Position numbers and translations under genes: made by a program. Below, piece after piece: positions 1-9,695 of a DNA stretch of 9,695 bases. The notes beneath the pieces are model-generated. The model saw nothing but the letters and a program-made list of their open reading frames with translations, made no database searches and was not told the origin of the DNA. How positions within the stretch are numbered: position 1 is the stretch's first letter; each line of letters starts with the position of its first letter. Where the stretch lies: the IMG/VR virus record IMGVR_UViG_2529292907_000010; one strand, given 5' to 3'. This DNA is from a virus. Lineage: Duplodnaviria; Heunggongvirae; Uroviricota; Caudoviricetes.

Positions 1-142
1 GTCGAACTTGAGCTGAAGGATCTTAAAACAGGTCTCCATAGTGCTCCTGGATTTTCTCTTTCTGGACATTGACGTCTCCACTGGTTTAAACACGGCAATG
101 GAGACTGTGGTGAAAAGAGTTAATTCCCGGAGTGACTGGCAG

Positions 143-270
143 GATGCCAATCAATGATCGGAAGCATGCTAAATCGTGATCGATTGTGATGCCAAACTGT
201 GATCGGAGATGAATGCCAAATCATGATCGATTCGAATGCCAAACTGCGATCGATTCAGATGCCATTTTGC
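143..270. repeat. Tandem direct repeat array, about 5.5 copies of a ~23-bp unit (consensus roughly GAATGCCAAAYYR-TGATCGATTC), each copy carrying a GATC site
   Basis: Read directly from sequence: GATC at 156-159, 178-181, 201-204, 225-228 and 248-251 (spacing 22-24 bp), each preceded by a GATGCCAA/GAATGCCAAA block. A sixth GATC lies at 325-328. The array sits about 200 bp upstream of the endolysin start. Confidence 0.8.
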
Positions 271-465
271 ACTCTGATTTTACCCGCTCATTTATGGCTT
301 GCAGGCATAAATCATAATTATGTTGATCGTTATGCATGGTTAATCCTCTACTGAAATTGTCAGATATATTTCAGCCATCAGGAAAAACGCCAGTGTCCTA
401 CCGCTGGCGGGCTGAAGATTTAACATATCCAGGGATTCGGAACCGATAAATCCTGATAAATATCC

Positions 466-999
466 ATGAACACCAAAATCAAATATGGCCTGTCGGCTGC
501 CGTTCTGGCGTTGATTGCCATCGGTGCGCCTGCGCCTGATATTCTCGACCAGTTTCTGGATGAAAAAGAAGGTAACCACACAACGGCATACCGTGATGGT
601 GCGGGTATCTGGACCATCTGCCGCGGTGCCACAATGGTGGATGGTAAACCTGTTATTCCGGGCATGAAACTGTCGAAGGAAAAATGCGACCAGGTTAATG
701 CCATTGAACGGGATAAGGCGCTGGCATGGGTGGAGCGCAATATTAAAGTTCCACTGACCGAACCACAGAAAGCGGGTATAGCGTCATTCTGTCCCTATAA
801 CATTGGCCCCGGTAAGTGTTTCCCGTCGACGTTTTATAAGCGGCTGAATGCTGGTGACCGCAGGGGAGCGTGTGAGGCGATTCGCTGGTGGATTAAGGAC
901 GGTGGCAGAGACTGCCGTATCCGCTCAAATAACTGTTATGGTCAGGTATCCCGTCGTGACCAGGAGAGCGCGCTGGCGTGCTGGGGAATCGACAGATAA
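466..999 (+). CDS. R: Phage endolysin, T4-lysozyme-like (glycoside hydrolase family 24), with an N-terminal signal-anchor-release (SAR) type hydrophobic segment
   Basis: 177-aa ORF. N-terminus GLSAAVLALIAIGAPAP is a Gly/Ala-rich weakly hydrophobic segment typical of SAR endolysins. Catalytic triad spacing E-x8-D-x5-T is present in EGNHTTAYRDGAGIWT. From memory it closely resembles the R endolysin of Stx/lambdoid prophages. An in-frame stop lies at 457-459, so 466 is the first possible start; no obvious Shine-Dalgarno. Confidence 0.93.
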   Translation: MNTKIKYGLSAAVLALIAIGAPAPDILDQFLDEKEGNHTTAYRDGAGIWTICRGATMVDGKPVIPGMKLSKEKCDQVNAIERDKALAWVERNIKVPLTEPQKAGIASFCPYNIGPGKCFPSTFYKRLNAGDRRGACEAIRWWIKDGGRDCRIRSNNCYGQVSRRDQESALACWGIDR

Positions 1000-1093
1000 G
1001 CAGAATATTTTGCTGAAAAATAAGGTATGGCCACGCGGGCGGATAACACGAAATCCTGCGAACTGGCGAAACGTAAGTGAATAAAAGTAAAAA

Positions 1094-1128
1094 CCCCGTT
1101 TGTTGGCACCAAGCGGGGTTTTGTGTTT
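1094..1128 (+). terminator. Rho-independent terminator-like hairpin (9-bp stem with one G-U pair, 7-nt loop, then T-rich tract)
   Basis: CCCCGTTTG (1094-1102), loop TTGGCAC (1103-1109), CAAGCGGGG (1110-1118), followed by TTTTGTGTTT. Lies between the endolysin stop and the next small ORF. Confidence 0.5.
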
Positions 1129-1155
1129 CTGACCTTGAGTAAGGCAAGGGAGAAC

Positions 1156-1338
1156 ATGGCGAAGTATAAACGAATTCTGTTGAGGTTGACTATGAAAAAT
1201 GGCCTTGAACTGAAAGCGCCTGTAACTGATGACATCAGCAGAGCACTGGCTTTTGCCATTAAGTGGGTGGCGGTCGGTGTTGCTGTGTCCCCGATGCTGT
1301 ATGGGCTGGCAAAACTGGTCATTGCGTTGAAATCGTGA
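1156..1338 (+). CDS. Small hypothetical protein (60 aa) with hydrophobic C-terminal half; candidate lysis-associated membrane protein
   Basis: ATG at 1156 preceded by purine-rich AAGGCAAGGGAGA. Product [60 protein letters not shown] has a basic N-terminus and a ~30-residue hydrophobic C-terminus. Same strand and tightly packed between R and Rz. The track's longer 1123 start is a GTG inside the terminator T-tract and is less likely. Confidence 0.45.
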
Positions 1339-1352
1339 AGGGAGGATTAAGC

Positions 1353-1484
1353 ATGTCAGACAAACTCATAACGCTGGCGAAGATCCTCTGTGTAATTGTC
1401 GGCATTTCATTTTCACTAATGCTGGTTGCTCTTTTTCTTTCCATGGCCTGGATGATGTTGTCTTCGTCGGGGTTGCTGGGGTGA
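1353..1484 (+). CDS. Small hydrophobic membrane peptide (43 aa), translationally coupled to Rz; candidate holin/antiholin-like or other lysis regulator
   Basis: Strong Shine-Dalgarno AAGGGAGGA (1338-1346) 6 nt before ATG 1353. Product [43 protein letters not shown] is almost entirely hydrophobic. Its TGA stop (1482-1484) overlaps the GTG start of Rz (1481) as GTGA. Confidence 0.45.
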
Positions 1485-1954
1485 ACATAAACCGAATGCT
1501 TTCCGCGTTTATCGTTATTCTGCTGGTGGCCTGTGGTGCGCTGTGGATGGCAACAGACCATTACCGTGATAACGCGATTACCTACAAAGCGCAGCGCGAT
1601 AACAAAGCCAGTGAACTGAAGCTGGCGAACGCAACCATTACTGATATGCAGGTGCGCCAGCGCGATGTTGCTGCGCTCGATGCAAAATACTCGAGGGAAT
1701 TATCCGATGCGAGAGCTGAAAATGAAACTCTGCGCGCTGATGTTGCCGCTGGTCGTAAGCGCCTGCGGATCAACGCCACCTGTCCAGGCTCCGTGCGTGA
1801 AGCCCCCACCACCTCCGGCGTGGATAATGCAACCGGCCCCCAACTGGCAGACACCGTTACACGGGATTATTTCACCCTCAGAGAGCGGCTGATGACGATG
1901 CACAAGCAACTGGAAGGGGCACAGGACTATATCCGCACTCAGTGCCTGAAATAA
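1481..1954 (+). CDS. Rz: Rz i-spanin (inner-membrane spanin subunit)
   Basis: N-terminal TM segment followed by [14 protein letters not shown]...[25 protein letters not shown]...[23 protein letters not shown], which matches my memory of lambda Rz closely. Start is either GTG 1481 (overlapping the upstream stop) or ATG 1496. Confidence 0.9.
1707..1892 (+). CDS. Rz1: Rz1 o-spanin (outer-membrane lipoprotein), fully nested in the +1 frame of Rz
   Basis: ATG 1707 with GAGG about 10 nt upstream. Product [61 protein letters not shown] has a lipoprotein signal with lipobox VSAC and a proline-rich mature region, as in lambda Rz1. Confidence 0.8.
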
Positions 1955-2304
1955 GTTTTGTTGATGCGCCGTATCGTCGCTGTATTCCCTCATTAACAGA
2001 GACCGCAGCCCGACAGGGAGACTCCTCTGCGCGAGTGTGCGGGGATAATCAAAAACGATACACACCGGGGTTTACCGCGTTAACGGAGCGCGGCGTTGTC
2101 CCCTCATAGTCGCCTGTCCGGTGCGATGGTGGAAGAAGCCGGATGTTTATCACTATTAATTGATGACACAGAAATGGATTCATTGAATTTCAGCACGTTT
2201 TTGTATTCGTGTTATTGAACATCTGTTTATTTTACTTTTAACATATTGATAATAAAAAGAGCTGTAAATCTTTAGATGAGTCGATTTTGTCCGGGGAAGT
2301 TCAA

Positions 2305-2445
2305 ATGGATTTTATGCTGACGGTTTCTGGTGTGGTTATCCTGTCCATTGCTTATACTGCAGATAAATATGGCTGCCATTTGTTATCACGTATTGGCGCT
2401 TATTGTTCGTTGATGCTGATTTTCTCGTCGCTTTTTTTTGAGTAA
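2305..2445 (+). CDS. Hypothetical small hydrophobic peptide (46 aa) in an AT-rich island
   Basis: ATG 2305 with GGGGAAG 5 nt upstream. Product MDFMLTVSGVVILSIAYTADKYGCHLLSRIGAYCSLMLIFSSLFFE. Below the ORF-track size cutoff; surrounding DNA is very AT-rich. No homolog recognised. Confidence 0.3.
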   Translation: MDFMLTVSGVVILSIAYTADKYGCHLLSRIGAYCSLMLIFSSLFFE

Positions 2446-2577
2446 GTTATATTAATTATAACAAATAATTTTCTGTGTTATTTTTTCAGGCTATCCCGTC
2501 AGAGGGGAAGCCTGTACTGCCGGGGAGCGAATGGAAAACTGATGTGTCCGGTAACTGCGTGTTCTGTGAACACCATG

Positions 2578-2763
2578 TTACTTAATTATGTAATTCATAC
2601 CCGAACTCTCTGTTGACAGCCTTCTTCTGCAGGCTTCAATAACCCACGCTGAAAAGTTTCCTGAACCTTTCAGATCAAGAGCGATGTTAATTTGTTCAAT
2701 CATCTGGTTTGGAAATCGGATGTTGCGGGTTGTTGTTCTGCGGGTTCTGTTCTTTGATGACAT
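2578..2763 (-). CDS. Arc/MetJ-like ribbon-helix-helix (RHH) DNA-binding protein, 61 aa
   Basis: Segment NIRFPNQMIEQINIALDLKGSGNFSAWVIEACRRRL follows the RHH pattern (beta-strand N-x-R-[FW]-P, helix A, Gly-containing turn, helix B) and aligns by eye with P22 Arc (NLRWPREVLDLVRKVAEENGRSVNSEIYQRVMESF). Inverted repeats lie upstream of its start on the minus strand. Confidence 0.55.
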   Translation of the reverse strand: MSSKNRTRRTTTRNIRFPNQMIEQINIALDLKGSGNFSAWVIEACRRRLSTESSGMNYIIK

Positions 2764-2818
2764 AATGTTTCCCCATATTCAGTGTTGCTGATTTGTATTA
2801 TCTGAAGTTGCTTTTACG

Positions 2819-2841
2819 TTAATTTGATGCAGATCAATTAA
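2819..2841. promoter_or_regulatory. Imperfect inverted repeat TTAATTTGAT-gcag-ATCAATTAA, candidate operator for the adjacent RHH gene
   Basis: Arms of about 10 bp around a central GCAG, located 56-78 bp upstream of the RHH start codon (2763, minus strand). RHH repressors commonly autoregulate through such repeats. Confidence 0.3.
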
Positions 2842-2918
2842 TACGATACCTGCGTCATAATTGATTATTTCTCGTGGTTTGATGGCGTACACACATGTTG
2901 TGATAAACCTTATATAGA

Positions 2919-2933
2919 TGATAATCATTATCA
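2919..2933. promoter_or_regulatory. Perfect 7-1-7 palindrome TGATAAT-C-ATTATCA, identical to the core of the Fur-box consensus; function unproven
   Basis: TGATAATCATTATCA read at 2919-2933 matches the central 15 bp of GATAATGATAATCATTATC. A second ATAAT-tg-ATTAT palindrome is at 2857-2868. A plausible sigma70 promoter (-35 TTGTGA 2898-2903, 16-bp spacer, -10 GATAAT 2920-2925) overlaps it on the plus strand. It lies about 40 bp upstream of cosN and may instead be part of the conserved cos flank. Confidence 0.35.
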
Positions 2934-2970
2934 TTTTCGTGGGTCCTTTCCGGCGATCCGACCGGTTACG

Positions 2971-2982
2971 GGGCGGCGACCT
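2971..2982. other. cos: cos cohesive-end sequence (cosN core, GGGCGGCGACCT)
   Basis: GGTTACG|GGGCGGCGACCTCGCGG...TATTTATGAAAATTTT matches the junction of the lambda right and left genome ends as I remember them. Position immediately upstream of Nu1 is as in lambda. Confidence 0.85.
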
Positions 2983-3020
2983 CGCGGTTTTTCACTATTT
3001 ATGAAAATTTTTCAGGGAAA

Positions 3021-3131
3021 ATCGTGTCGGTACTTCTCGAATATAACTTTTTGTTTTTTTAATATTGCATCCGTAAAGGTCCGACATGAAAGTGTCCGAA
3101 AATGCCTTTTTCTGGCGTTTTCACGTCGGGC
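3021..3131. promoter_or_regulatory. cosB: cosB-like region: four copies of a GTCGG/CCGAC-containing element in alternating orientation, with an A/T-tract between them
   Basis: CGTGTCGGTA (3021-3030, +), GGTCCGACATG (3078-3088, inverted), GTGTCCGAA (3092-3100, inverted), CACGTCGGG (3122-3130, +). The layout between cosN and Nu1 resembles the lambda R3-I1-R2-R1 arrangement. Element boundaries are approximate. Confidence 0.4.
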
Positions 3132-3157
3132 CTTGTATTTGATAATGGGTTGTTTTC

Positions 3158-3706
3158 ATGAAGGTTAATAAAAAGAGGCTTGCCGAAATTTTCAACGTGG
3201 ACCCGCGGACGATTGAACGCTGGCAGTCTCAGGGACTCCCTTGCGCCTCCAAAGGTAGTAAGGGCATTGAATCTGTATTTGATACTGCCATGGCAATTCA
3301 GTGGTATGCGCAGAGGGAAACTGATATCGAAAACGAAAAGCTCCGCAAAGAACTGGACGATTTGCGTGCGGCAGCGGAGTCAGATTTACAACCCGGCACC
3401 ATTGACTATGAACGCTACAGGCTCACAAAAGCGCAGGCAGATGCGCAGGAACTGAAAAATGCCCGTGAAGACGGAGTAGTGCTGGAAACTGAACTGTTTA
3501 CCTTCATTCTGCAACGTGTGGCACAGGAGATTTCGGGGATACTTGTGCGTGTGCCGTTGACATTACAGCGTAAATATCCGGACATTTCACCATCACACCT
3601 TGATGTGGTGAAAACTGAAATCGCGAAAGCCTCCAATGTTGCAGCTAAGGCCGGTGAAAACGTGGGCGGGTGGATCGATGATTTCAGACGCGCAGAAGGC
3701 AGCTAA
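3158..3706 (+). CDS. Nu1: Terminase small subunit (gpNu1-like), N-terminal winged-HTH cosB-binding domain
   Basis: 182 aa. [28 protein letters not shown]...[49 protein letters not shown] is near-collinear with lambda Nu1 from memory. Confidence 0.95.
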
Positions 3707-5605
3707 TGCAGCCGGTGCGATAGCTACAGGGCTTTTATCTCTCATTATTCCTGTTCCACTGACGACAGTTCAGTGGGCCAATAAACATTATTACCTTCCT
3801 AAAGAGTCGTCTTATACCCCGGGGCGGTGGGAAACACTGCCGTTTCAGGTTGGCATCATGAACTGTATGGGCAACGATCTGATTCGCACGGTTAACCTGA
3901 TTAAATCTGCCCGTGTTGGTTATACAAAGATGTTGCTGGGAGTGGAGGCTTATTTTATTGAGCATAAATCACGCAACAGCCTTCTTTTTCAGCCCACGGA
4001 CTCAGCTGCTGAAGATTTTATGAAATCTCATGTTGAGCCAACGATAAGGGATGTTCCTGCATTGCTGGAGCTGGCTCCATGGTTCGGAAGAAAACACCGC
4101 GATAATACGCTCACCCTGAAGCGTTTTTCCTCCGGTGTGGGGTTCTGGTGTCTGGGTGGTGCGGCAGCAAAAAACTACCGTGAAAAATCCGTGGATGTGG
4201 TCTGTTATGACGAGCTTTCCTCGTTCGAACCGGATGTTGAAAAAGAGGGTTCGCCAACCCTGCTGGGGGATAAACGTATTGAGGGCTCTGTATGGCCAAA
4301 ATCCATTCGCGGCTCGACGCCTAAAATCAAAGGCTCCTGCCAGATCGAAAAAGCCGCTAACGAGTCGGCACACTTCATGCGTTTTTATGTGCCCTGTCCG
4401 CACTGTGGGGAGGAGCAGTATCTGAAATTTGGCGATGATGCCTCGCCTTTCGGTCTTAAGTGGGAGAAGAATAAGCCAGAAAGTGTTTTCTACCTTTGTG
4501 AGCATCATGGCTGTGTGATCCATCAGTCTGAGCTTGACCAGAGTAACGGGCGGTGGATCTGTGAAAACACGGGCATGTGGACCCGTGACGGCCTGATGTT
4601 TTTCAGCGCCCGGGGTGATGAAATTCCGCCGCCGCGCTCCATCACTTTCCATATCTGGACGGCGTACAGTCCGTTCACCACATGGGTACAGATTGTCTAT
4701 GACTGGCTGGATGCACTGAAAGATCCCAACGGCCTGAAAACCTTTGTGAACACCACGCTGGGCGAGACCTGGGAAGAGGCTGTGGGCGAAAAACTCGATC
4801 ACCAGGTACTGATGGATAAGGTTGTGCGTTACACGGCGGCGGTGCCTGCCCGGGTGGTTTATCTGACGGCGGGCATTGACTCGCAGCGAAACCGTTTTGA
4901 GATGTATGTCTGGGGATGGGCTCCGGGAGAGGAAGCCTTTCTGGTGGATAAAATCATCATTATGGGGCGTCCCGATGAGGAAGAGACGCTGTTACGTGTG
5001 GATGCGGCGATCAACAAAAAATACCGCCATGCAGACGGAACCGAAATGACTATTTCTCGTGTCTGCTGGGACATCGGGGGGATCGATGGCGAAATCGTTT
5101 ATCAGAGGTCAAAAAAACACGGTGTTTTCCGGGTGCTGCCGATAAAAGGCGCATCTGTCTATGGCAAGCCGGTGATCACCATGCCAAAAACCCGCAATCA
5201 GCGGGGCGTGTATCTGTGTGAAGTGGGGACGGACACCGCAAAGAAATTCTCTATGCCCGTATGAAAGCCGATCCCACGCCTGTGGATGAAGCCACGTCGT
5301 ATGCCATCCGTTTTCCTGATGATCCGGAGATTTTTTCGCAGACAGAGGCGCAGCAACTGGTCGCGGAAGAGCTTGTGGAGAAGTGGGAAAAAGGAAAGAT
5401 GCGTCTGCTGTGGGATAACAAAAAGCGGCGTAACGAAGCGCTGGACTGCCTGGTGTATGCCTACGCGGCATTACGTGTGTCCGTGCAACGCTGGCAGCTT
5501 GATCTGGCTGTACTGGCAAAATCCCGGGAAGAAGAGACGACCCGGCCAACCCTTAAAGAACTGGCAGCGAAGCTGTCCGGAGGAGTGAATGGTTACAGTC
5601 GCTGA
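3678..5605 (+). CDS. A: Terminase large subunit (gpA-like), interrupted by an apparent 1-nt frameshift near 5240-5245; possible pseudogene or sequencing error
   Basis: Frame 0 (3678-5264) matches lambda gpA from ...[12 protein letters not shown] through ...[13 protein letters not shown], then stops. The homology continues in the -1 frame ([17 protein letters not shown]...[25 protein letters not shown]... to stop at 5603-5605). The switch occurs in GCAAAGAAATTC; one missing base would restore a single ~641-aa ORF. Likely start ATG 3678, overlapping the Nu1 3' end as in lambda. Confidence 0.88.
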
Positions 5606-5795
5606 ACTGCAGGCGCTGCGTCAGGCGCGCCTTGATTTATTAACCGGTAAACGGGTGGTGTCTGTCCAGAAAGATGGTCGCAGAATTGAATATACGACGG
5701 CTTCTCTGGATGAGCTTAACCGGGCGATCAATGATGCGGAGTCGGTACTGGGGACAACCCGGCGTCGCCGTCGTCCGCTGGGAGTGAGGTTATGA
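5589..5795 (+). CDS. W: Head-tail joining / head completion protein (gpW-like)
   Basis: 68 aa; LLTGKRVVSVQKDGRRIEYTTASL matches lambda gpW ([24 protein letters not shown]). GGAGG upstream; its stop overlaps the portal start as ATGA. Confidence 0.92.
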   Translation: MVTVAELQALRQARLDLLTGKRVVSVQKDGRRIEYTTASLDELNRAINDAESVLGTTRRRRRPLGVRL

Positions 5796-7384
5796 AACGA
5801 ACGCCTGTCCTGATTGATGTGAACGGCGTTCCGCTTCGTGAGAGTCTCAGCTACAACGGGGGCGGTGCAGGATTTGGCGGGCAAATGGCTGAGTGGTTGC
5901 CACCGGCGCAGAGTGCCGATGCGGCCCTGCTGCCCGCGTTGCGTCTGGGGAATGCCCGGGCAGATGATCTGGTGCGCAATAACGGAATAGCGGCTAATGC
6001 GGTGGCTCTGCATAAGGATCACATTGTCGGGCATATGTTTCTGATCAGCTACCGTCCGAACTGGCGCTGGCTGGGGATGCGGGAGACCGCAGCAAAAAGC
6101 TTTGTCGATGAGGTGGAGGCGGCCTGGTCGGAATACGCCGAAGGGATGTTTGGCGAGATCGACGTGGAAGGAAAACGCACGTTCACGGAATTTATCCGTG
6201 AAGGTGTGGGCGTTCATGCGTTTAACGGCGAAATCTTTGTGCAGCCGGTCTGGGATACGGAAACCACGCAGTTATTCCGTACGCGTTTTAAAGCCGTGAG
6301 TCCGAAACGGGTGGACACGCCTGGACACGGTATGGGGAACCGTTTTCTGCGGGCCGGTGTGGAGGTCGATCGATATGGCCGTGCCGTCGCGTACCATATC
6401 TGTGAGGATGATTTTCCGTTCTCTGGTAGTGGACGATGGGAACGGATCCCGCGTGAACTTCCCACCGGGCGTCCGGCCATGCTGCATATTTTCGAGCCGG
6501 TGGAGGACGGGCAGACCCGTGGGGCTAATCAGTTTTACAGCGTCATGGAACGGCTGAAGATGCTCGATTCCCTGCAGGCAACACAGCTTCAGTCGGCCAT
6601 AGTGAAGGCGATGTATGCAGCGACGATTGAAAGTGAACTTGATACCGAAAAGGCCTTTGAATATATCGCCGGCGCGCCACAGGAGCAGAAGGATAATCCG
6701 CTTATTAATATTCTGGAGAAGTTCTCCAGCTGGTATGACACGAATAACGTGACACTGGGCGGTGTCAAAATTCCGCACCTTTTCCCTGGTGATGATCTGA
6801 AACTACAGACTGCGCAGGATTCAGACAATGGATTTTCTGCGCTTGAACAGGCGCTGCTGCGGTATATCGCCGCCGGTCTTGGCGTTTCCTACGAACAGTT
6901 GTCCCGTGATTACTCGAAGGTCAGTTACTCAAGTGCCCGCGCCTCCGCCAATGAGTCGTGGCGCTATTTTATGGGGCGGCGAAAATTTATTGCGGCCCGG
7001 CTGGCCACGCAGATGTTTTCCTGCTGGCTGGAAGAGGCACTTCTTCGGGGGATTATTCGTCCGCCACGGGCACGTTTTGATTTTTATCAGGCGCGATCAG
7101 CCTGGTCACGGGCAGAGTGGATTGGTGCCGGAAGAATGGCCATTGACGGGCTCAAGGAAGTCCAGGAATCAGTGATGCGCATTGAGGCCGGACTGAGCAC
7201 GTATGAGAAAGAGCTGGCGCTGATGGGCGAGGATTATCAGGACATTTTCCGCCAGCAGGTCAGGGAATCTGCTGAGCGGCAAAAAGCCGGACTCTCACGT
7301 CCGGTGTGGATAGCGCAGGCGTATCAGCAGCAGATAGCGGAGAGTCGCAGGCCGGAAGAGGAGACAACACCACGTGAGACGTAA
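5792..7384 (+). CDS. B: Portal protein (gpB-like)
   Basis: 530 aa with long collinear matches to lambda gpB: GNARADDLVRNNG, FEPVEDGQTRGAN, LQSAIVKAMYAATIESELDT, LLRYIAAGLGVSYEQLSR, WIGAGRMAIDGLKEVQE. Confidence 0.96.
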   Translation: MKRTPVLIDVNGVPLRESLSYNGGGAGFGGQMAEWLPPAQSADAALLPALRLGNARADDLVRNNGIAANAVALHKDHIVGHMFLISYRPNWRWLGMRETAAKSFVDEVEAAWSEYAEGMFGEIDVEGKRTFTEFIREGVGVHAFNGEIFVQPVWDTETTQLFRTRFKAVSPKRVDTPGHGMGNRFLRAGVEVDRYGRAVAYHICEDDFPFSGSGRWERIPRELPTGRPAMLHIFEPVEDGQTRGANQFYSVMERLKMLDSLQATQLQSAIVKAMYAATIESELDTEKAFEYIAGAPQEQKDNPLINILEKFSSWYDTNNVTLGGVKIPHLFPGDDLKLQTAQDSDNGFSALEQALLRYIAAGLGVSYEQLSRDYSKVSYSSARASANESWRYFMGRRKFIAARLATQMFSCWLEEALLRGIIRPPRARFDFYQARSAWSRAEWIGAGRMAIDGLKEVQESVMRIEAGLSTYEKELALMGEDYQDIFRQQVRESAERQKAGLSRPVWIAQAYQQQIAESRRPEEETTPRET

Positions 7385-8879
7385 TCTTTCACACATTATT
7401 GCCGCAGCATTCAATGAACCGCTGCTTCTGGAGCCCGCCTATGCGCGGGTTTTCTTTTGCGCGCTCGGGCGCGAGATGGGGGCAGCAAGTCTTTCGGTAC
7501 CACAACAGCAGGTACAGTTTGATGCTCCCGGAATGCTGGCTGAAACGGACGAGTACATGGCCGGAGGTAAACGACCTGCCCGTGTTTACAGGGTGGTGAA
7601 CGGTATTGCTGTACTGCCGGTGACCGGCACGCTGGTGCACCGGCTGGGTGGTATGCGGCCATTTTCCGGAATGACAGGCTATGACGGTATTGTCGCCTGT
7701 CTTCAGCAGGCAATGGCGGATAGCCAGGTGCGGGGCGTACTGCTGGACATTGACAGTCCGGGCGGGCAGGCCGCCGGCGCGTTTGACTGCGCTGACATGA
7801 TTTACCGCCTCCGTCAGCAGAAGCCGGTCTGGGCACTGTGCAATGACACGGCCTGTTCTGCAGCCATGCTGCTGGCGTCGGCCTGCTCCCGACGGCTGGT
7901 TACCCAGACATCCCGTATCGGTTCCATTGGCGTGATGATGAGCCATGTCAGCTATGCCGGTCATCTGGCGCAGGCCGGTGTGGATATCACGCTGATTTAC
8001 TCAGGGGCGCACAAGGTGGATGGCAATCAGTTTGAAGCGTTGCCGGCAGAGGTTCGCCAGGACATGCAGCAGCGGATTGATGCGGCGCGCCGGATGTTTG
8101 CCGAAAAAGTGGCGATGTTTACCGGTCTGTCTGTTGATGCAGTCACGGGAACAGAGGCCGCCGTTTTTGAAGGTCAGTCCGGCATTGAGGCCGGGCTGGC
8201 GGATGAATTAATCAATGCGTCGGATGCCATCAGTGTGATGGCCACGGCGCTGAACAGTAATGTCAGAGGAGGCACTATGCCGCAATTAACTGCAACGGAA
8301 GCCGCCGCGCAGGAGAACCAGCGAGTGATGGGGATCCTGACATGCCAGGAAGCGAAAGGACGTGAACAGCTTGCCACGATGCTGGCAGGACAACAGGGCA
8401 TGAGCGTTGAACAGGCCCGGGCGATTCTGGCCGCGGCGGCACCGCAGCAGCCGGTGGCATCCGCGCAGAGTGAAGCCGATCGCATTATGGCGTGTGAAGA
8501 AGCGAACGGTCGTGAACAACTGGCGGCAACGCTGGCGGCGATGCCGGAGATGACGGTGGAACAAGCCCGCCCGATCCTGGCGGCTGCACCACTGGCGGAT
8601 GCCGGGCCCTCACTTCGTGATCAGATCATGGCCCTGGATGAGGCAAAAGGGGCAGAAGCGCAGGCTGAAAAACTGGCGGCCTGCCCGGGAATGACCGTGG
8701 AGAACGCCCGGGCTGTGCTGGCTGCGGGATCAGGTAAGGCCGAACCGGTCTCTGCATCCACAACCGCCCTGTTTGAACATTTCATGGCGAATCATTCACC
8801 GGCAGCGGTGCGGGGTGGCGTGTCACAGACGTCAGCAGACGGTGATGCGGACGTGAAAATGCTCATGGCCATGCCATGA
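7374..8879 (+). CDS. C: Head maturation protease / scaffold fusion (gpC-like, S49/ClpP-fold protease domain) with an expanded C-terminal scaffold region
   Basis: GTG start 7374 with GAGGAGA 9 nt upstream. N-terminal 300 aa collinear with lambda gpC (AFNEPLLLEPAYARVFFCAL, NGIAVLPVTGTLV, SPGG, RRLVTQTSRIGSIGVMM). The C-terminal part holds three tandem ~45-50-aa modules where I recall lambda having one. Confidence 0.93.
   Translation: MRRNLSHIIAAAFNEPLLLEPAYARVFFCALGREMGAASLSVPQQQVQFDAPGMLAETDEYMAGGKRPARVYRVVNGIAVLPVTGTLVHRLGGMRPFSGMTGYDGIVACLQQAMADSQVRGVLLDIDSPGGQAAGAFDCADMIYRLRQQKPVWALCNDTACSAAMLLASACSRRLVTQTSRIGSIGVMMSHVSYAGHLAQAGVDITLIYSGAHKVDGNQFEALPAEVRQDMQQRIDAARRMFAEKVAMFTGLSVDAVTGTEAAVFEGQSGIEAGLADELINASDAISVMATALNSNVRGGTMPQLTATEAAAQENQRVMGILTCQEAKGREQLATMLAGQQGMSVEQARAILAAAAPQQPVASAQSEADRIMACEEANGREQLAATLAAMPEMTVEQARPILAAAPLADAGPSLRDQIMALDEAKGAEAQAEKLAACPGMTVENARAVLAAGSGKAEPVSASTTALFEHFMANHSPAAVRGGVSQTSADGDADVKMLMAMP
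8277..8879 (+). CDS. Nu3: Nu3-like scaffolding protein, in-frame nested within the 3' part of C (internal translation start)
   Basis: In-frame ATG 8277 preceded by a strong GAGGAGG (8265-8271), at the position corresponding to the lambda Nu3 internal start (lambda ...SGGRMTKETQ vs here ...RGGTMPQLTA). Encodes the triplicated module region. Confidence 0.5.
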   Translation: MPQLTATEAAAQENQRVMGILTCQEAKGREQLATMLAGQQGMSVEQARAILAAAAPQQPVASAQSEADRIMACEEANGREQLAATLAAMPEMTVEQARPILAAAPLADAGPSLRDQIMALDEAKGAEAQAEKLAACPGMTVENARAVLAAGSGKAEPVSASTTALFEHFMANHSPAAVRGGVSQTSADGDADVKMLMAMP

Positions 8880-8915
8880 AGTCAGTGCTGACCATCAATA
8901 TGAGGTTTTAACAAA

Positions 8916-9263
8916 ATGGTGACGAAAACCATCACTGAACAGCGTGCGGAAGTACGTATTTTTGCTGGTAATGATCCGGCTCATACCGCCACAGGCAGCA
9001 GCGGGATTTCTTCTGCAACACCGGCTCTGACGCCCCTGATGCTGGATGAAGCCACCGGGAAACTGGTGGTCTGGGATGGACAGAAAGTCGGTAGTGCGGT
9101 TGGCATACTGGTACTGCCGCTTGAAGGCACAGAGACGGTGCTGACCTATTACAAGTCGGGGACCTTTGCGACGGAGGCAATCCGCTGGCCTGACAGTGTG
9201 GATGAACACAAAAAGGCAAATGCCTTTGCCGGCACAGCCCTGAGTCACGCGGCTCTGCCGTAA
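8916..9263 (+). CDS. D: Head decoration protein (gpD-like)
   Basis: 115 aa; NDPAHTATG, TPLMLDE...KLVVWDG, AVGIL, YYKSGTF, AFAGTA match lambda gpD. Confidence 0.93.
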   Translation: MVTKTITEQRAEVRIFAGNDPAHTATGSSGISSATPALTPLMLDEATGKLVVWDGQKVGSAVGILVLPLEGTETVLTYYKSGTFATEAIRWPDSVDEHKKANAFAGTALSHAALP

Positions 9264-9320
9264 CACGTTATCAGGCCACCATGGTGGCCTGACTGATTTC
9301 TGAATGAAAGGAACTGATTT

Positions 9321-9695
9321 ATGGGATTGTTTACGACCCGCCAGTTACTCGGTTATACCGAACAAAAAGTTAAATTCCGTGCGCTATTTCTGGAGCTGTT
9401 TTTCCGCCGTACGGTGAATTTCCACACCGAAGAGGTGATGCTGGACAAAATTACCGGAAAAACGCCGGTGGCGGCCTATGTCTCCCCGATCGTTGAAGGA
9501 AAAGTGCTGCGCCATCGTGGTGGTGAAACCCGCGTGTTGCGTCCGGGCTACGTCAAGCCGAAACACGAATTTAATTACCAGCAGGCGGTTGAGCGCCTTC
9601 CCGGTGAAGATCCGGCTCAGCTGAACGACCCGGCCTACCGTCGTCTGCGTATCATCACTGATAACCTCAAACAGGAAGAGCACGCTATTGTGCAG
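9321..9695 (+). CDS. E: Major capsid protein (gpE-like), 5' portion only; runs off the end of the window
   Basis: ATG 9321 with AAAGGAA upstream. MGLFTTRQLLGYTEQKVKF..LFLELFFRR...YVSPIV.G.V.R.RGG....PGYVKPKHE...RLP.EDP..L.DPAYRR.RII matches lambda gpE. No stop before 9695. Confidence 0.9.
   Translation, partial: MGLFTTRQLLGYTEQKVKFRALFLELFFRRTVNFHTEEVMLDKITGKTPVAAYVSPIVEGKVLRHRGGETRVLRPGYVKPKHEFNYQQAVERLPGEDPAQLNDPAYRRLRIITDNLKQEEHAIVQ

What the first reader, a model, noticed from the sequence alone, without database searches (positions are those of the whole stretch)
143..330. 23-bp tandem repeat array with one GATC per unit, upstream of the lysis genes
Five GATC sites at 22-24 bp spacing (about two helical turns) inside ~5.5 direct repeats is a non-random arrangement. 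Phased GATC clusters are typical of Dam/SeqA-sensitive elements (origins, methylation-controlled promoters, OxyR- or Lrp-type epigenetic switches), and direct repeats at this spacing also resemble iterons or binding arrays for a regulator. Its place where a late promoter/antiterminator site would be expected raises the possibility that late or lysis expression is methylation- or protein-array-controlled. It could also be a degenerate remnant replacing the holin region.
Basis: seen in the sequence. Interest (0 to 1): 0.55.

Follow-up and report, generated by a model that had tools for sequence, protein, structure and literature searches.

The report
Insertion sequence end, not phage switch
The 23-bp GATC repeats are the transposase-binding repeats at the left end of a catalogued IS21-family insertion sequence (ISSso4-like) that has jumped into a prophage just upstream of its lysozyme gene, so this is an ordinary feature and not a phage regulatory array.

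Summary
Five GATC sites lie 22-24 bp apart inside a 23-bp tandem array at window 144-264. About 0.4 would be expected by chance.

The array is not phage DNA. Window 1-271 is the istA-proximal (left) end, in reverse orientation, of a 2,639-bp IS21-family insertion sequence that PGAP names as ISSso4 family. The element's tip (...TTTTGCA) is at window 271. It interrupts a 104-aa hypothetical ORF that is intact in a 99.6%-identical prophage lacking the element.

Each unit carries two conserved boxes, TTTGGCAT and YCGATCA, about one helical turn apart. Three more units sit in inverted orientation at the other end of the element. Ten IstA relatives (34-47% identity) show the same tip-anchored 22-23-bp register, with 2-5 units per end.

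This matches the IS21-family terminal-repeat architecture that cryo-EM of IS5376 showed to be read by the two helix-turn-helix domains of IstA. The GATC is part of box 2. In relatives the same box reads GTGATC, GAGATC, GTGACC or GTGAAC, so overlap with the Dam site is probably incidental. An effect of Dam methylation on IstA binding is untested.

Verdict: already known, low interest.

The parts
1..271 (-). Left (istA-proximal) end of an IS21-family insertion sequence (ISSso4-like). The window starts inside the element, and the tip ...CCATTTTGCA ends at 271.
   Evidence: It matches IS copies annotated istA/istB 'IS21-like element ISSso4 family' at 98-99% identity in many E. coli chromosomes and plasmids. 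The tip is fixed at 271 by four independent insertions with 6-7-bp target duplications. The window copy differs from those four at positions 34 and 170 only.
134..271 (-). Array of six 22-24-bp terminal repeat units (inferred IstA-binding sites), read inward from the tip. Each unit is box 1 TTTGGCAT, N5-7, box 2 YCGATCA, N3-4. GATC is at 248, 225, 201, 178 and 156. The innermost unit has box 1 at 144-150 and a degenerate box 2 (CAGTC) at 134-138.
   Evidence: Units are conserved in relatives with 79-89% IstA identity, while the spacers between boxes vary. The innermost box 2 is an intact CGATC in L006, L007, L011 and L014.
74..105 (-). Conserved inverted repeat or hairpin (GTCTCCATTG...CAGTGGAGAC) in the istA leader. 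Its 3' arm contains the GGAG that lies 6 nt upstream of the upstream in-frame ATG.
   Evidence: The leader folds with z = -2.76 against shuffles. The stem is kept in 8 relatives, mostly without change, with one compensatory pair.
1..69 (-). 5' end of istA. The PGAP-annotated start is the ATG at 39-37. A conserved in-frame upstream ATG at 69-67 would add MSRKRKSRST.
   Evidence: Searches give the annotated start. One search shows two in-frame starts 7-10 codons apart in ISSso4-like copies and in all distant relatives examined.
272..337 (-). Remnant (first 22 codons) of a 104-aa prophage hypothetical ORF cut by the IS. The IS/phage junction is at 271/272; the three bases GCA at 269-271 match both partners.
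   Evidence: The ORF is intact in the empty-site prophage L025 at 2752-3066 and as orf6 in Stx2 phage 86. It has no Pfam family.
466..999 (+). Prophage lysozyme R. This is context only and not part of the IS.
   Evidence: Pfam PF00959, E 2.8e-25. It is annotated lysozyme in related phages and prophages.

Best explanation
The array is the multiple terminal repeat of the left inverted repeat of an ISSso4-like IS21-family insertion sequence. It sits between the element's tip (5'-TG...CA-3', window 271) and the leader of its transposase gene istA, which is transcribed leftward out of the window.

Each ~23-bp unit offers two short boxes about one helical turn apart, TTTGGCAT and YCGATCA. [quoted passage not shown] The two outermost units of each end would assemble an IstA tetramer that synapses the ends and cleaves at the terminal CA. 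The 23-bp phasing puts successive monomers on nearly the same face of the helix and favours the superhelical wrap seen in that structure.

The inner units fill all the space up to the istA leader. I infer that they are accessory loading sites, autoregulatory sites over the istA promoter, or both.

The GATC is simply the core of box 2. In E. coli it will be Dam-methylated as a side effect.

What is shown: identity, position, boundaries, box structure, presence at both ends in inverted orientation, conservation among relatives, and absence from the uninterrupted prophage. What is inferred: IstA binding to these particular boxes, the role of the extra units, and any effect of methylation.
For: 1. 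Window 1-271 is 98-99% identical to the istA-side end of annotated IS21-family (ISSso4-family) elements at many unrelated E. coli loci.
2. The full copies encode IstA (NF033546, E 9e-85) and IstB (NF038214, E 9e-77). This IstA is homologous to the solved IS5376 IstA, 8B4H/8Q4D, E about 1e-13.
3. The element is 2,639 bp with tips TGCGTATT... and ...TTTTGCA, and has 6-7-bp target duplications in four independent insertions.
4. The right end carries three units of the same two-box motif in inverted orientation. The first GATC lies 19-20 nt from the tip at both ends.
5. Eight of the element's 13 GATC sites lie in the terminal 230 bp, P about 4e-6.
6. In relatives with 79-89% IstA identity the boxes are kept while the spacers diverge, and unit number varies from 4 to 6.
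7. Ten IstA relatives at 34-47% identity all show a TGCGTATT-type tip followed by units in a 22-23-nt register, with two conserved boxes per unit. For nine of them both ends were counted: 3-5 units on the left and 2-4 on the right. For the Thauera element only the right end could be read.
8. The empty-site prophage L025 (99.6% identity to window 272-9695) and Stx2 phage 86 lack the array and have an intact ORF across the insertion point.
9. PMC10122671 reports that IS21-family terminal inverted repeats consist of multiple direct repeats (L1/L2, R1/R2) 23 bp apart. Each repeat has two conserved regions about 10 bp apart, read by HTH-1 and HTH-2 of IstA. Two complete repeats are required for integration.
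Against: - No binding or transposition data exist for this element, so the assignment of boxes to HTH domains is by analogy with a distant relative. The phmmer alignment to IS5376 IstA covers residues 75-373, so the first HTH is outside the aligned region.
- Only 271 bp of the IS lie in the window. Whether this copy is complete, and its target duplication, cannot be checked.
- Six units is at the top of the range I saw (3-6 on the left), and the function of units beyond the outer two is unknown in any family member.
Confidence: 0.93

Rival explanations
1. The array is a Dam/SeqA- or regulator-controlled switch belonging to the prophage, governing late or lysis gene expression.
For: The array has five phased GATC sites and lies about 200-320 bp upstream of the lysozyme gene.
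Against: - The array is inside an inserted IS and ends exactly at the IS tip.
- It is missing from the 99.6%-identical empty-site prophage and from phage 86.
- Among 50,697 phage records, none matches the array beyond position 194. The only hits within it (104-194, in three Stx2 phage records) are annotated as partial transposases.
- The motif's orientation and its inverted counterpart at the other IS end tie it to the IS.
Confidence: 0.02
2. An add-on to the main explanation, not an alternative. The GATC in every unit makes IstA binding, or the istA promoter embedded in the array, sensitive to Dam methylation state or to SeqA. That would couple transposition to passage of the replication fork, as known for IS10, IS50 and IS903 (my own knowledge: Roberts et al. 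1985; Yin et al. 1988).
For: - GATC lies inside the conserved box 2 in 8 of 9 units of ISSso4. It is kept in relatives down to 79% IstA identity.
- A second, unrelated E. coli IS21-family element, ISEc12 (47% IstA identity), also has GATC in all 4+2 units.
- In IS5376, IstA reads its boxes through the major groove (PMC10122671), and that is where an N6-methyl group would project.
- Spacing of 22-24 bp suits cooperative SeqA binding (my own knowledge).
Against: - The homologous box is also GTGATC in ISBmu3 from Burkholderia and partly in a Thauera element. As far as I know, these hosts do not normally carry Dam.
- The box is GTGAAC in ISAs29, which lives in Dam-positive hosts.
- GATC is embedded in a longer conserved box, YCGATCA, as expected for a protein recognition site.
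- No paper linking Dam to IS21-family elements was found in the held library.
Confidence: 0.2
3. The array is a set of iterons at a replication origin, or a decayed remnant of the holin region.
For: Tandem ~22-bp repeats resemble iterons, and no holin gene is visible in the window upstream of R.
Against: - No initiator gene adjoins the array. The adjacent gene is istA.
- The same array travels with the IS to many unrelated sites.
- In the empty-site prophage the class II holin gene is intact about 1.1 kb upstream of the insertion point. In the window's genome it should therefore lie beyond the IS rather than being replaced.
Confidence: 0.01

Closest known systems
ISSso4 (IS21 family; name used by ISfinder and NCBI PGAP) and its copies in E. 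coli, Shigella, Salmonella and Klebsiella chromosomes and plasmids
   Same: The 271 bp held in the window are 98-99% identical to these copies. The tip, the units, the istA start and the leader are the same.
   Different: There are two private substitutions, at window 34 and 170. The change at 170 turns box 1 of unit 5 from TTTGGCAT into TTTAGCAT. This particular insertion site was not found in 5,426 complete E. coli genomes or in the viral contig collection.
IS5376 / IS21 terminal inverted repeats (L1-L2(-L3), R1-R2) bound by IstA; cryo-EM structures 8B4H and 8Q4D
   Same: Both have direct repeats about 23 bp apart at both ends. Each repeat has two conserved boxes about one helical turn apart, and the element ends in a terminal CA. 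The transposase core is homologous.
   Different: The box sequences differ. ISSso4 has 6 left and 3 right units, against the prototypical 2-3. Box 2 contains GATC. No biochemistry exists for ISSso4.
ISEc12, ISBmu3, IS1162, ISAs29, ISPsy14, ISIde2 (IS21-family relatives, 42-47% IstA identity)
   Same: All have a TGCGTATT-type tip and a 22-23-nt register from the tip, with 3-5 units on the left and 2-4 on the right. All have two in-frame istA starts.
   Different: Box 2 reads GAGATC, GTGATC, GTGACC, GTGAAC, CCGGAC or CTGGAC. Several of them (ISBmu3, IS1162, ISAs29, ISEc12) add inverted copies of the unit inside the direct array, which ISSso4 lacks.
Dam-regulated IS ends (IS10/Tn10, IS50/Tn5, IS903)
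   Same: GATC sits inside the transposase-binding terminal sequence in a Dam-positive host.
   Different: Those elements have one or two GATC sites, and a methylation effect has been demonstrated. Here there are 8 sites, nothing has been tested, and the same box occurs in elements from non-Dam hosts.

Membership tests
IS21 family insertion sequence | istA encodes an IS21-type DDE transposase | tested here: met
   The window holds only the first 13 codons (or 23 from the upstream ATG). These are identical to full copies whose IstA scores NF033546 at E 9e-85, above the curated cutoff, and matches IS5376 IstA at E about 1e-13.
IS21 family insertion sequence | istB AAA+ helper ATPase lies immediately downstream of istA | tested here: met
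   Met in the full copies L001, L003, L023 and L024 (NF038214, E 9e-77). It lies outside the window for this copy.
IS21 family insertion sequence | Termini are 5'-TG...CA-3', with short target-site duplications | tested here: met
   The tips are TGCGTATT... and ...TTTTGCA. Four independent insertions have 6-7-bp duplications. The duplication of the window's own copy cannot be checked because the other junction is outside the window.
IS21 family insertion sequence | Multiple direct repeats about 23 bp apart within both terminal inverted repeats, each with two conserved boxes | tested here: met
   There are six units on the left and three on the right in inverted orientation. The architecture is as described for the family in PMC10122671.
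IS21 family insertion sequence | IstA binds the repeats and cleaves at the terminal CA | not testable with these tools
   This needs EMSA or footprinting and a transposition assay with ISSso4 IstA/IstB.
   It is absent from the empty-site prophage L025 and from Stx2 phage 86. No phage record matches the array beyond position 194.
   This needs methylome data or dam mutant assays.
Iteron-type replication origin | Iterons lie adjacent to a cognate initiator gene, an AT-rich region or DnaA boxes | tested here: not met
   The adjacent gene is istA, and the array moves with the IS to unrelated sites.

The most novel reading that the evidence does not exclude
All eight intact IstA-binding units of ISSso4 carry a Dam site at the core of box 2, and so do all six units of the unrelated E. 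coli element ISEc12. Methylation state, or SeqA sequestration of the phased hemimethylated array, could gate IstA loading or istA transcription. That would make this a multi-site, replication-coupled control of an IS21-family element, which I did not find described in the held literature.
Probability: 0.2. Interest if true: 0.4.

Novelty: already known. Interest (0 to 1): 0.1.

Why it matters
It matters mainly for annotation. The repeat array marks the boundary of a mobile element, not a phage control region.

The insertion splits the prophage's late region. A 2.6-kb IS now sits between the holin side and the lysozyme, lysis and packaging genes, inside a small ORF of unknown function. Together with a frameshift in the terminase large subunit gene, this suggests the prophage may be defective.

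The comparative survey also gives a compact picture of how box 2 of the IstA site drifts among relatives (GATC, GACC, GAAC, GGAC) while the 23-bp register from the tip is kept. The one open biological question is whether Dam methylation affects IS21-family transposition in enterobacteria.

Tried and rejected
- I searched the phage collection for the array. Only the phage part (269-470) and partial-transposase remnants (104-194) matched.
- I searched viral contigs for the exact IS/phage junction and found none. No complete E. coli genome spans the junction either. The best hit, H31, is an ISSso4 copy at a different site in a prophage lysis region.
- Many BLAST hits extended to 274-283, which raised the question of whether the IS really ends beyond 271. 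Inspection of four copies showed chance similarity of the flanking target sequences, and the tip is at 271.
- An Rfam scan of the whole window returned nothing.
- The promoter scan gave one weak promoter-like site inside the array, no more than shuffles give.
- I could not read the Berger & Haas 2001 review because it is not held.
- A literature search for Dam plus IS21 found nothing relevant.
- Two of the most distant IstA relatives fetched (Conchiformibius L028, Acinetobacter L031) were too diverged for me to find their ends by eye. L026 and L027 turned out to be further ISEc12 copies.

Full report
**1.

GATC occurs at window 156, 178, 201, 225 and 248, with spacings of 22, 23, 24 and 23. 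Tandem Repeats Finder calls a period-23 array and a better-matching period-47 array (80% matches) over 142-264. The composite motif ATGCYAA-N3-7-GATC is found five times in the window, all in 144-251. Shuffles give a mean of 0.07, and none of 200 reaches five. Five GATC in 97 bp has a Poisson probability below 1e-4.

**2. The array belongs to an insertion sequence**

- A megablast of window 1-470 against complete E. coli genomes shows that 1 to about 271 matches, at 98-99%, the region just upstream of genes annotated 'istA: IS21 family transposase'. The matches lie at many unrelated chromosomal and plasmid sites.
- Only 269-470 matches phage DNA, at 100% to Stx2-converting phage 86.
- Full copies (L001, L003, L023, L024) carry istA followed by istB 'IS21-like element ISSso4 family helper ATPase'.
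- Their products score NF033546 (IS21 family transposase, E 9e-85) and NF038214 (IstB, E 9e-77), both above the curated cutoffs. IstA is homologous to the structurally solved IS5376 IstA (8B4H/8Q4D, E about 1e-13).
- In the window, istA starts on the minus strand at 39 and runs out of the left edge.
- ISSso4 is a named element reported on enterobacterial plasmids.

**3. Boundaries**

In four independent insertions the element is 2,639 bp. It runs from TGCGTATTCCGC... on the istB side to ...GATGCCATTTTGCA on the istA side, and is flanked by 6-7-bp direct duplications: ATTGAA, GTATGAC, GTCTGCG and CGCTGG. The corresponding tip in the window is at 271.

An uninterrupted prophage in E. coli TUM13773 (L025) is 99.6% identical to window 272-9695. 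Across the insertion point it reads ...GAGTAAGAGGCA|CTCTGATTTTACCC.... There, a 104-aa hypothetical ORF on the minus strand is intact (L025 2752-3066; orf6 in phage 86; no Pfam family). The window keeps only its first 22 codons (337-272).

In L025 the class II holin gene lies about 1.1 kb upstream of the insertion point. The holin region has therefore not been replaced by the repeats. It should lie on the far side of the IS, outside the window.

**4. Anatomy of the array**

Read inward from the tip (minus strand), the left end falls into six rows of 23 nt. Each row holds box 1 (TTTGGCAT; TGGCAT in the tip unit), 5-7 variable bases, box 2 (YCGATCA), and 3-4 variable bases. The innermost unit has CAGTCA in place of CGATCA in E. 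coli copies. It is an intact CGATCA in elements from Klebsiella indica, Serratia fonticola, Rahnella and Enterobacter asburiae.

The right end has three units of the same motif in inverted orientation. At both ends the first GATC lies 19-20 nt from the tip. Eight of the element's 13 GATC sites lie in the terminal 230 bp, P about 4e-6.

Among relatives with 79-89% IstA identity, the boxes are conserved while the spacers diverge. C at position -1 and A at position +4 relative to GATC are nearly invariant, so GATC is embedded in a longer recognition box. Unit number varies: 4 in Buttiauxella, 5 in Rahnella and E. asburiae, and 6 elsewhere. Together with the better period-47 match, this suggests expansion and contraction by one- or two-unit steps.

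**5. The architecture is general in this branch of the family**

Ten more distant IstA relatives (34-47% identity) from Pseudomonas, Burkholderia, Acidithiobacillus, Methylorubrum, Alicycliphilus, Thauera and E. coli plasmids all have a TGCGTATT-type tip followed by units in a 22-23-nt register, with two boxes per unit. For the Thauera element only the right end could be read.

| Element | Units left/right |
|---|---|
| ISSso4 | 6/3 |
| ISPsy14 | 5/3 |
| ISPpu7-like | 5/4 |
| ISEc12 | 4/2 |
| ISAs29 | 4/2 |
| ISBmu3 | 4/2 |
| IS1162 | 4/2 |
| A. caldus element | 4/3 |
| M. extorquens element | 3/4 |
| ISIde2 | 3/2 |

At the position homologous to ISSso4's CGATC, box 2 reads:
- GTGATC in ISBmu3;
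- GAGATC in ISEc12;
- GTGACC in IS1162;
- GTGAAC in ISAs29;
- CCGGAC, CCGGCC or CTGGAC in the others.

**6. Mechanism**

Spinola-Amilibia et al. (PMC10122671) report three things for the IS21-family element IS5376:
- The terminal inverted repeats are made of direct repeats (L1/L2, R1/R2) 23 bp apart.
- Each repeat has two conserved regions about 10 bp apart, contacted through the major groove by HTH-1 and HTH-2 of one IstA monomer.
- Two full repeats are needed for integration. Catalytic subunits sit on repeat 1 and structural subunits on repeat 2 of an IstA tetramer, which wraps two ends into a superhelical synapse.

The ISSso4 array has exactly this layout. The best-supported reading is therefore that the 23-bp units are IstA-binding sites. 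That the outer two units build the transpososome is inferred by homology.

The role of the further units is also inference. They occupy all the DNA between the tip and the istA leader. I consider accessory loading sites, or autoregulation of an istA promoter within the array, the most likely roles. Consecutive box 1 copies (TTGGCA) are spaced like -35/-10 hexamers. The scan found one such weak site at 195-166 on the minus strand, which is no more than shuffles give.

**7. GATC and Dam**

GATC is the core of a conserved protein-recognition box, and the same box is GTGATC in a Burkholderia element. The presence of a Dam site in each unit is therefore most simply a by-product of the IstA recognition sequence.

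It remains possible that methylation or SeqA modulates IstA binding in enterobacteria. Both E. coli-resident elements I examined other than ISAs29 (ISSso4 and ISEc12) have GATC in every intact unit. Dam control of transposase binding is established for IS10, IS50 and IS903 (my own knowledge). I found no paper addressing this for the IS21 family. I rate this add-on at about 0.2.

**8. Verdict**

The repeat array is real and non-random. It is the well-known terminal multi-repeat of an IS21-family element that is already named and catalogued, inserted into a lambdoid prophage. It is not a phage promoter, antiterminator site, origin or epigenetic switch. Novelty: already known. Interest: low.

**9. 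Seen in passing**

- The terminase large subunit gene is split into two ORFs (3636-5264 and 5261-5605). The cause is a one-base shorter A-run at 5236-5239 relative to L025.
- istA has two conserved in-frame starts, at window 69 and 39. This resembles the transposase/cointegrase pair of IS21, cited as reference 37 in PMC10122671.
- A conserved hairpin at 74-105 covers the Shine-Dalgarno sequence of the upstream start.
- The window's IS copy has a private change in box 1 of unit 5.
- Several relatives carry inverted copies of the unit inside the direct array.

Noticed in passing
window 3636-5605 (indel at 5236-5239): The lambda/phage 21-type terminase large subunit gene is split into two ORFs (3636-5264 and 5261-5605). 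The cause is a one-base shorter A-run (gcaaagaaa against gcaaaagaaa) relative to the 99.6%-identical prophage L025, where the gene is intact at 642 aa. This is either a real inactivating frameshift, meaning a defective prophage, or a homopolymer sequencing error. Three further 1-nt indels against L025 lie at window 2432, 2934 and 3053.
   Followed up: partly
window 37-69, minus strand: istA has two in-frame ATGs 10 codons apart, at 69 and 39. The upstream one would add MSRKRKSRST, and that peptide is conserved at the amino-acid level in relatives (MSKKRKARSS, MSRKKNQRTS). All distant relatives examined also have two in-frame starts 7-10 codons apart. PGAP annotates the long form there but the short form in ISSso4-like copies. 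This resembles the IS21 transposase/cointegrase pair.
   Followed up: partly
window 74-105, minus strand: A conserved 10-bp-stem hairpin or inverted repeat (GTCTCCATTG-N12-CAGTGGAGAC) lies in the istA leader. Its 3' arm contains the GGAG 6 nt upstream of the upstream ATG, so it could occlude that ribosome-binding site. The fold has z = -2.76. The stem is kept in 8 relatives but with only one compensatory pair, so an RNA structure and a DNA operator cannot be told apart.
   Followed up: partly
window 170 (and 34): The window's IS copy differs from four other E. coli copies at only two positions. The change at 170 turns box 1 of unit 5 from TTTGGCAT into TTTAGCAT. That creates a TAGCAT -10-like hexamer 18 bp downstream of a TTGGCA, which is the only promoter-like hit in the array (minus strand, 195-166).
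   Followed up: no
L019 (ISBmu3), L021 (IS1162), L018 (ISAs29), L016 (ISEc12): left ends, about 90-200 nt from the tip: In these relatives the direct array of IstA-site units is followed by 1-5 copies of the same unit in inverted orientation, for example GATCA-N6-CCGAAAC five times in ISBmu3. ISSso4 lacks these. Their function is unknown; they may be extra regulatory IstA sites over the istA promoter.
   Followed up: no
L010, L011, L014 compared with window 134-271: Unit number in the left-end array varies among close relatives: 4 in Buttiauxella, 5 in Rahnella and E. asburiae, and 6 in E. coli, Serratia and Klebsiella indica. In the window, period 47 matches better than period 23. Both points suggest the array grows and shrinks by unit or two-unit slippage or recombination.
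   Followed up: partly
L003 1633-4271 (E. coli VTB97074v): A second, independent ISSso4 insertion lies in the lysis region of another lambdoid prophage. It sits between a truncated DUF1327 gene and the lysozyme gene, at a different site with a different target duplication (GTATGAC). This may be coincidence, or a hint that this AT-rich spacer between S and R is a favoured target.
   Followed up: no
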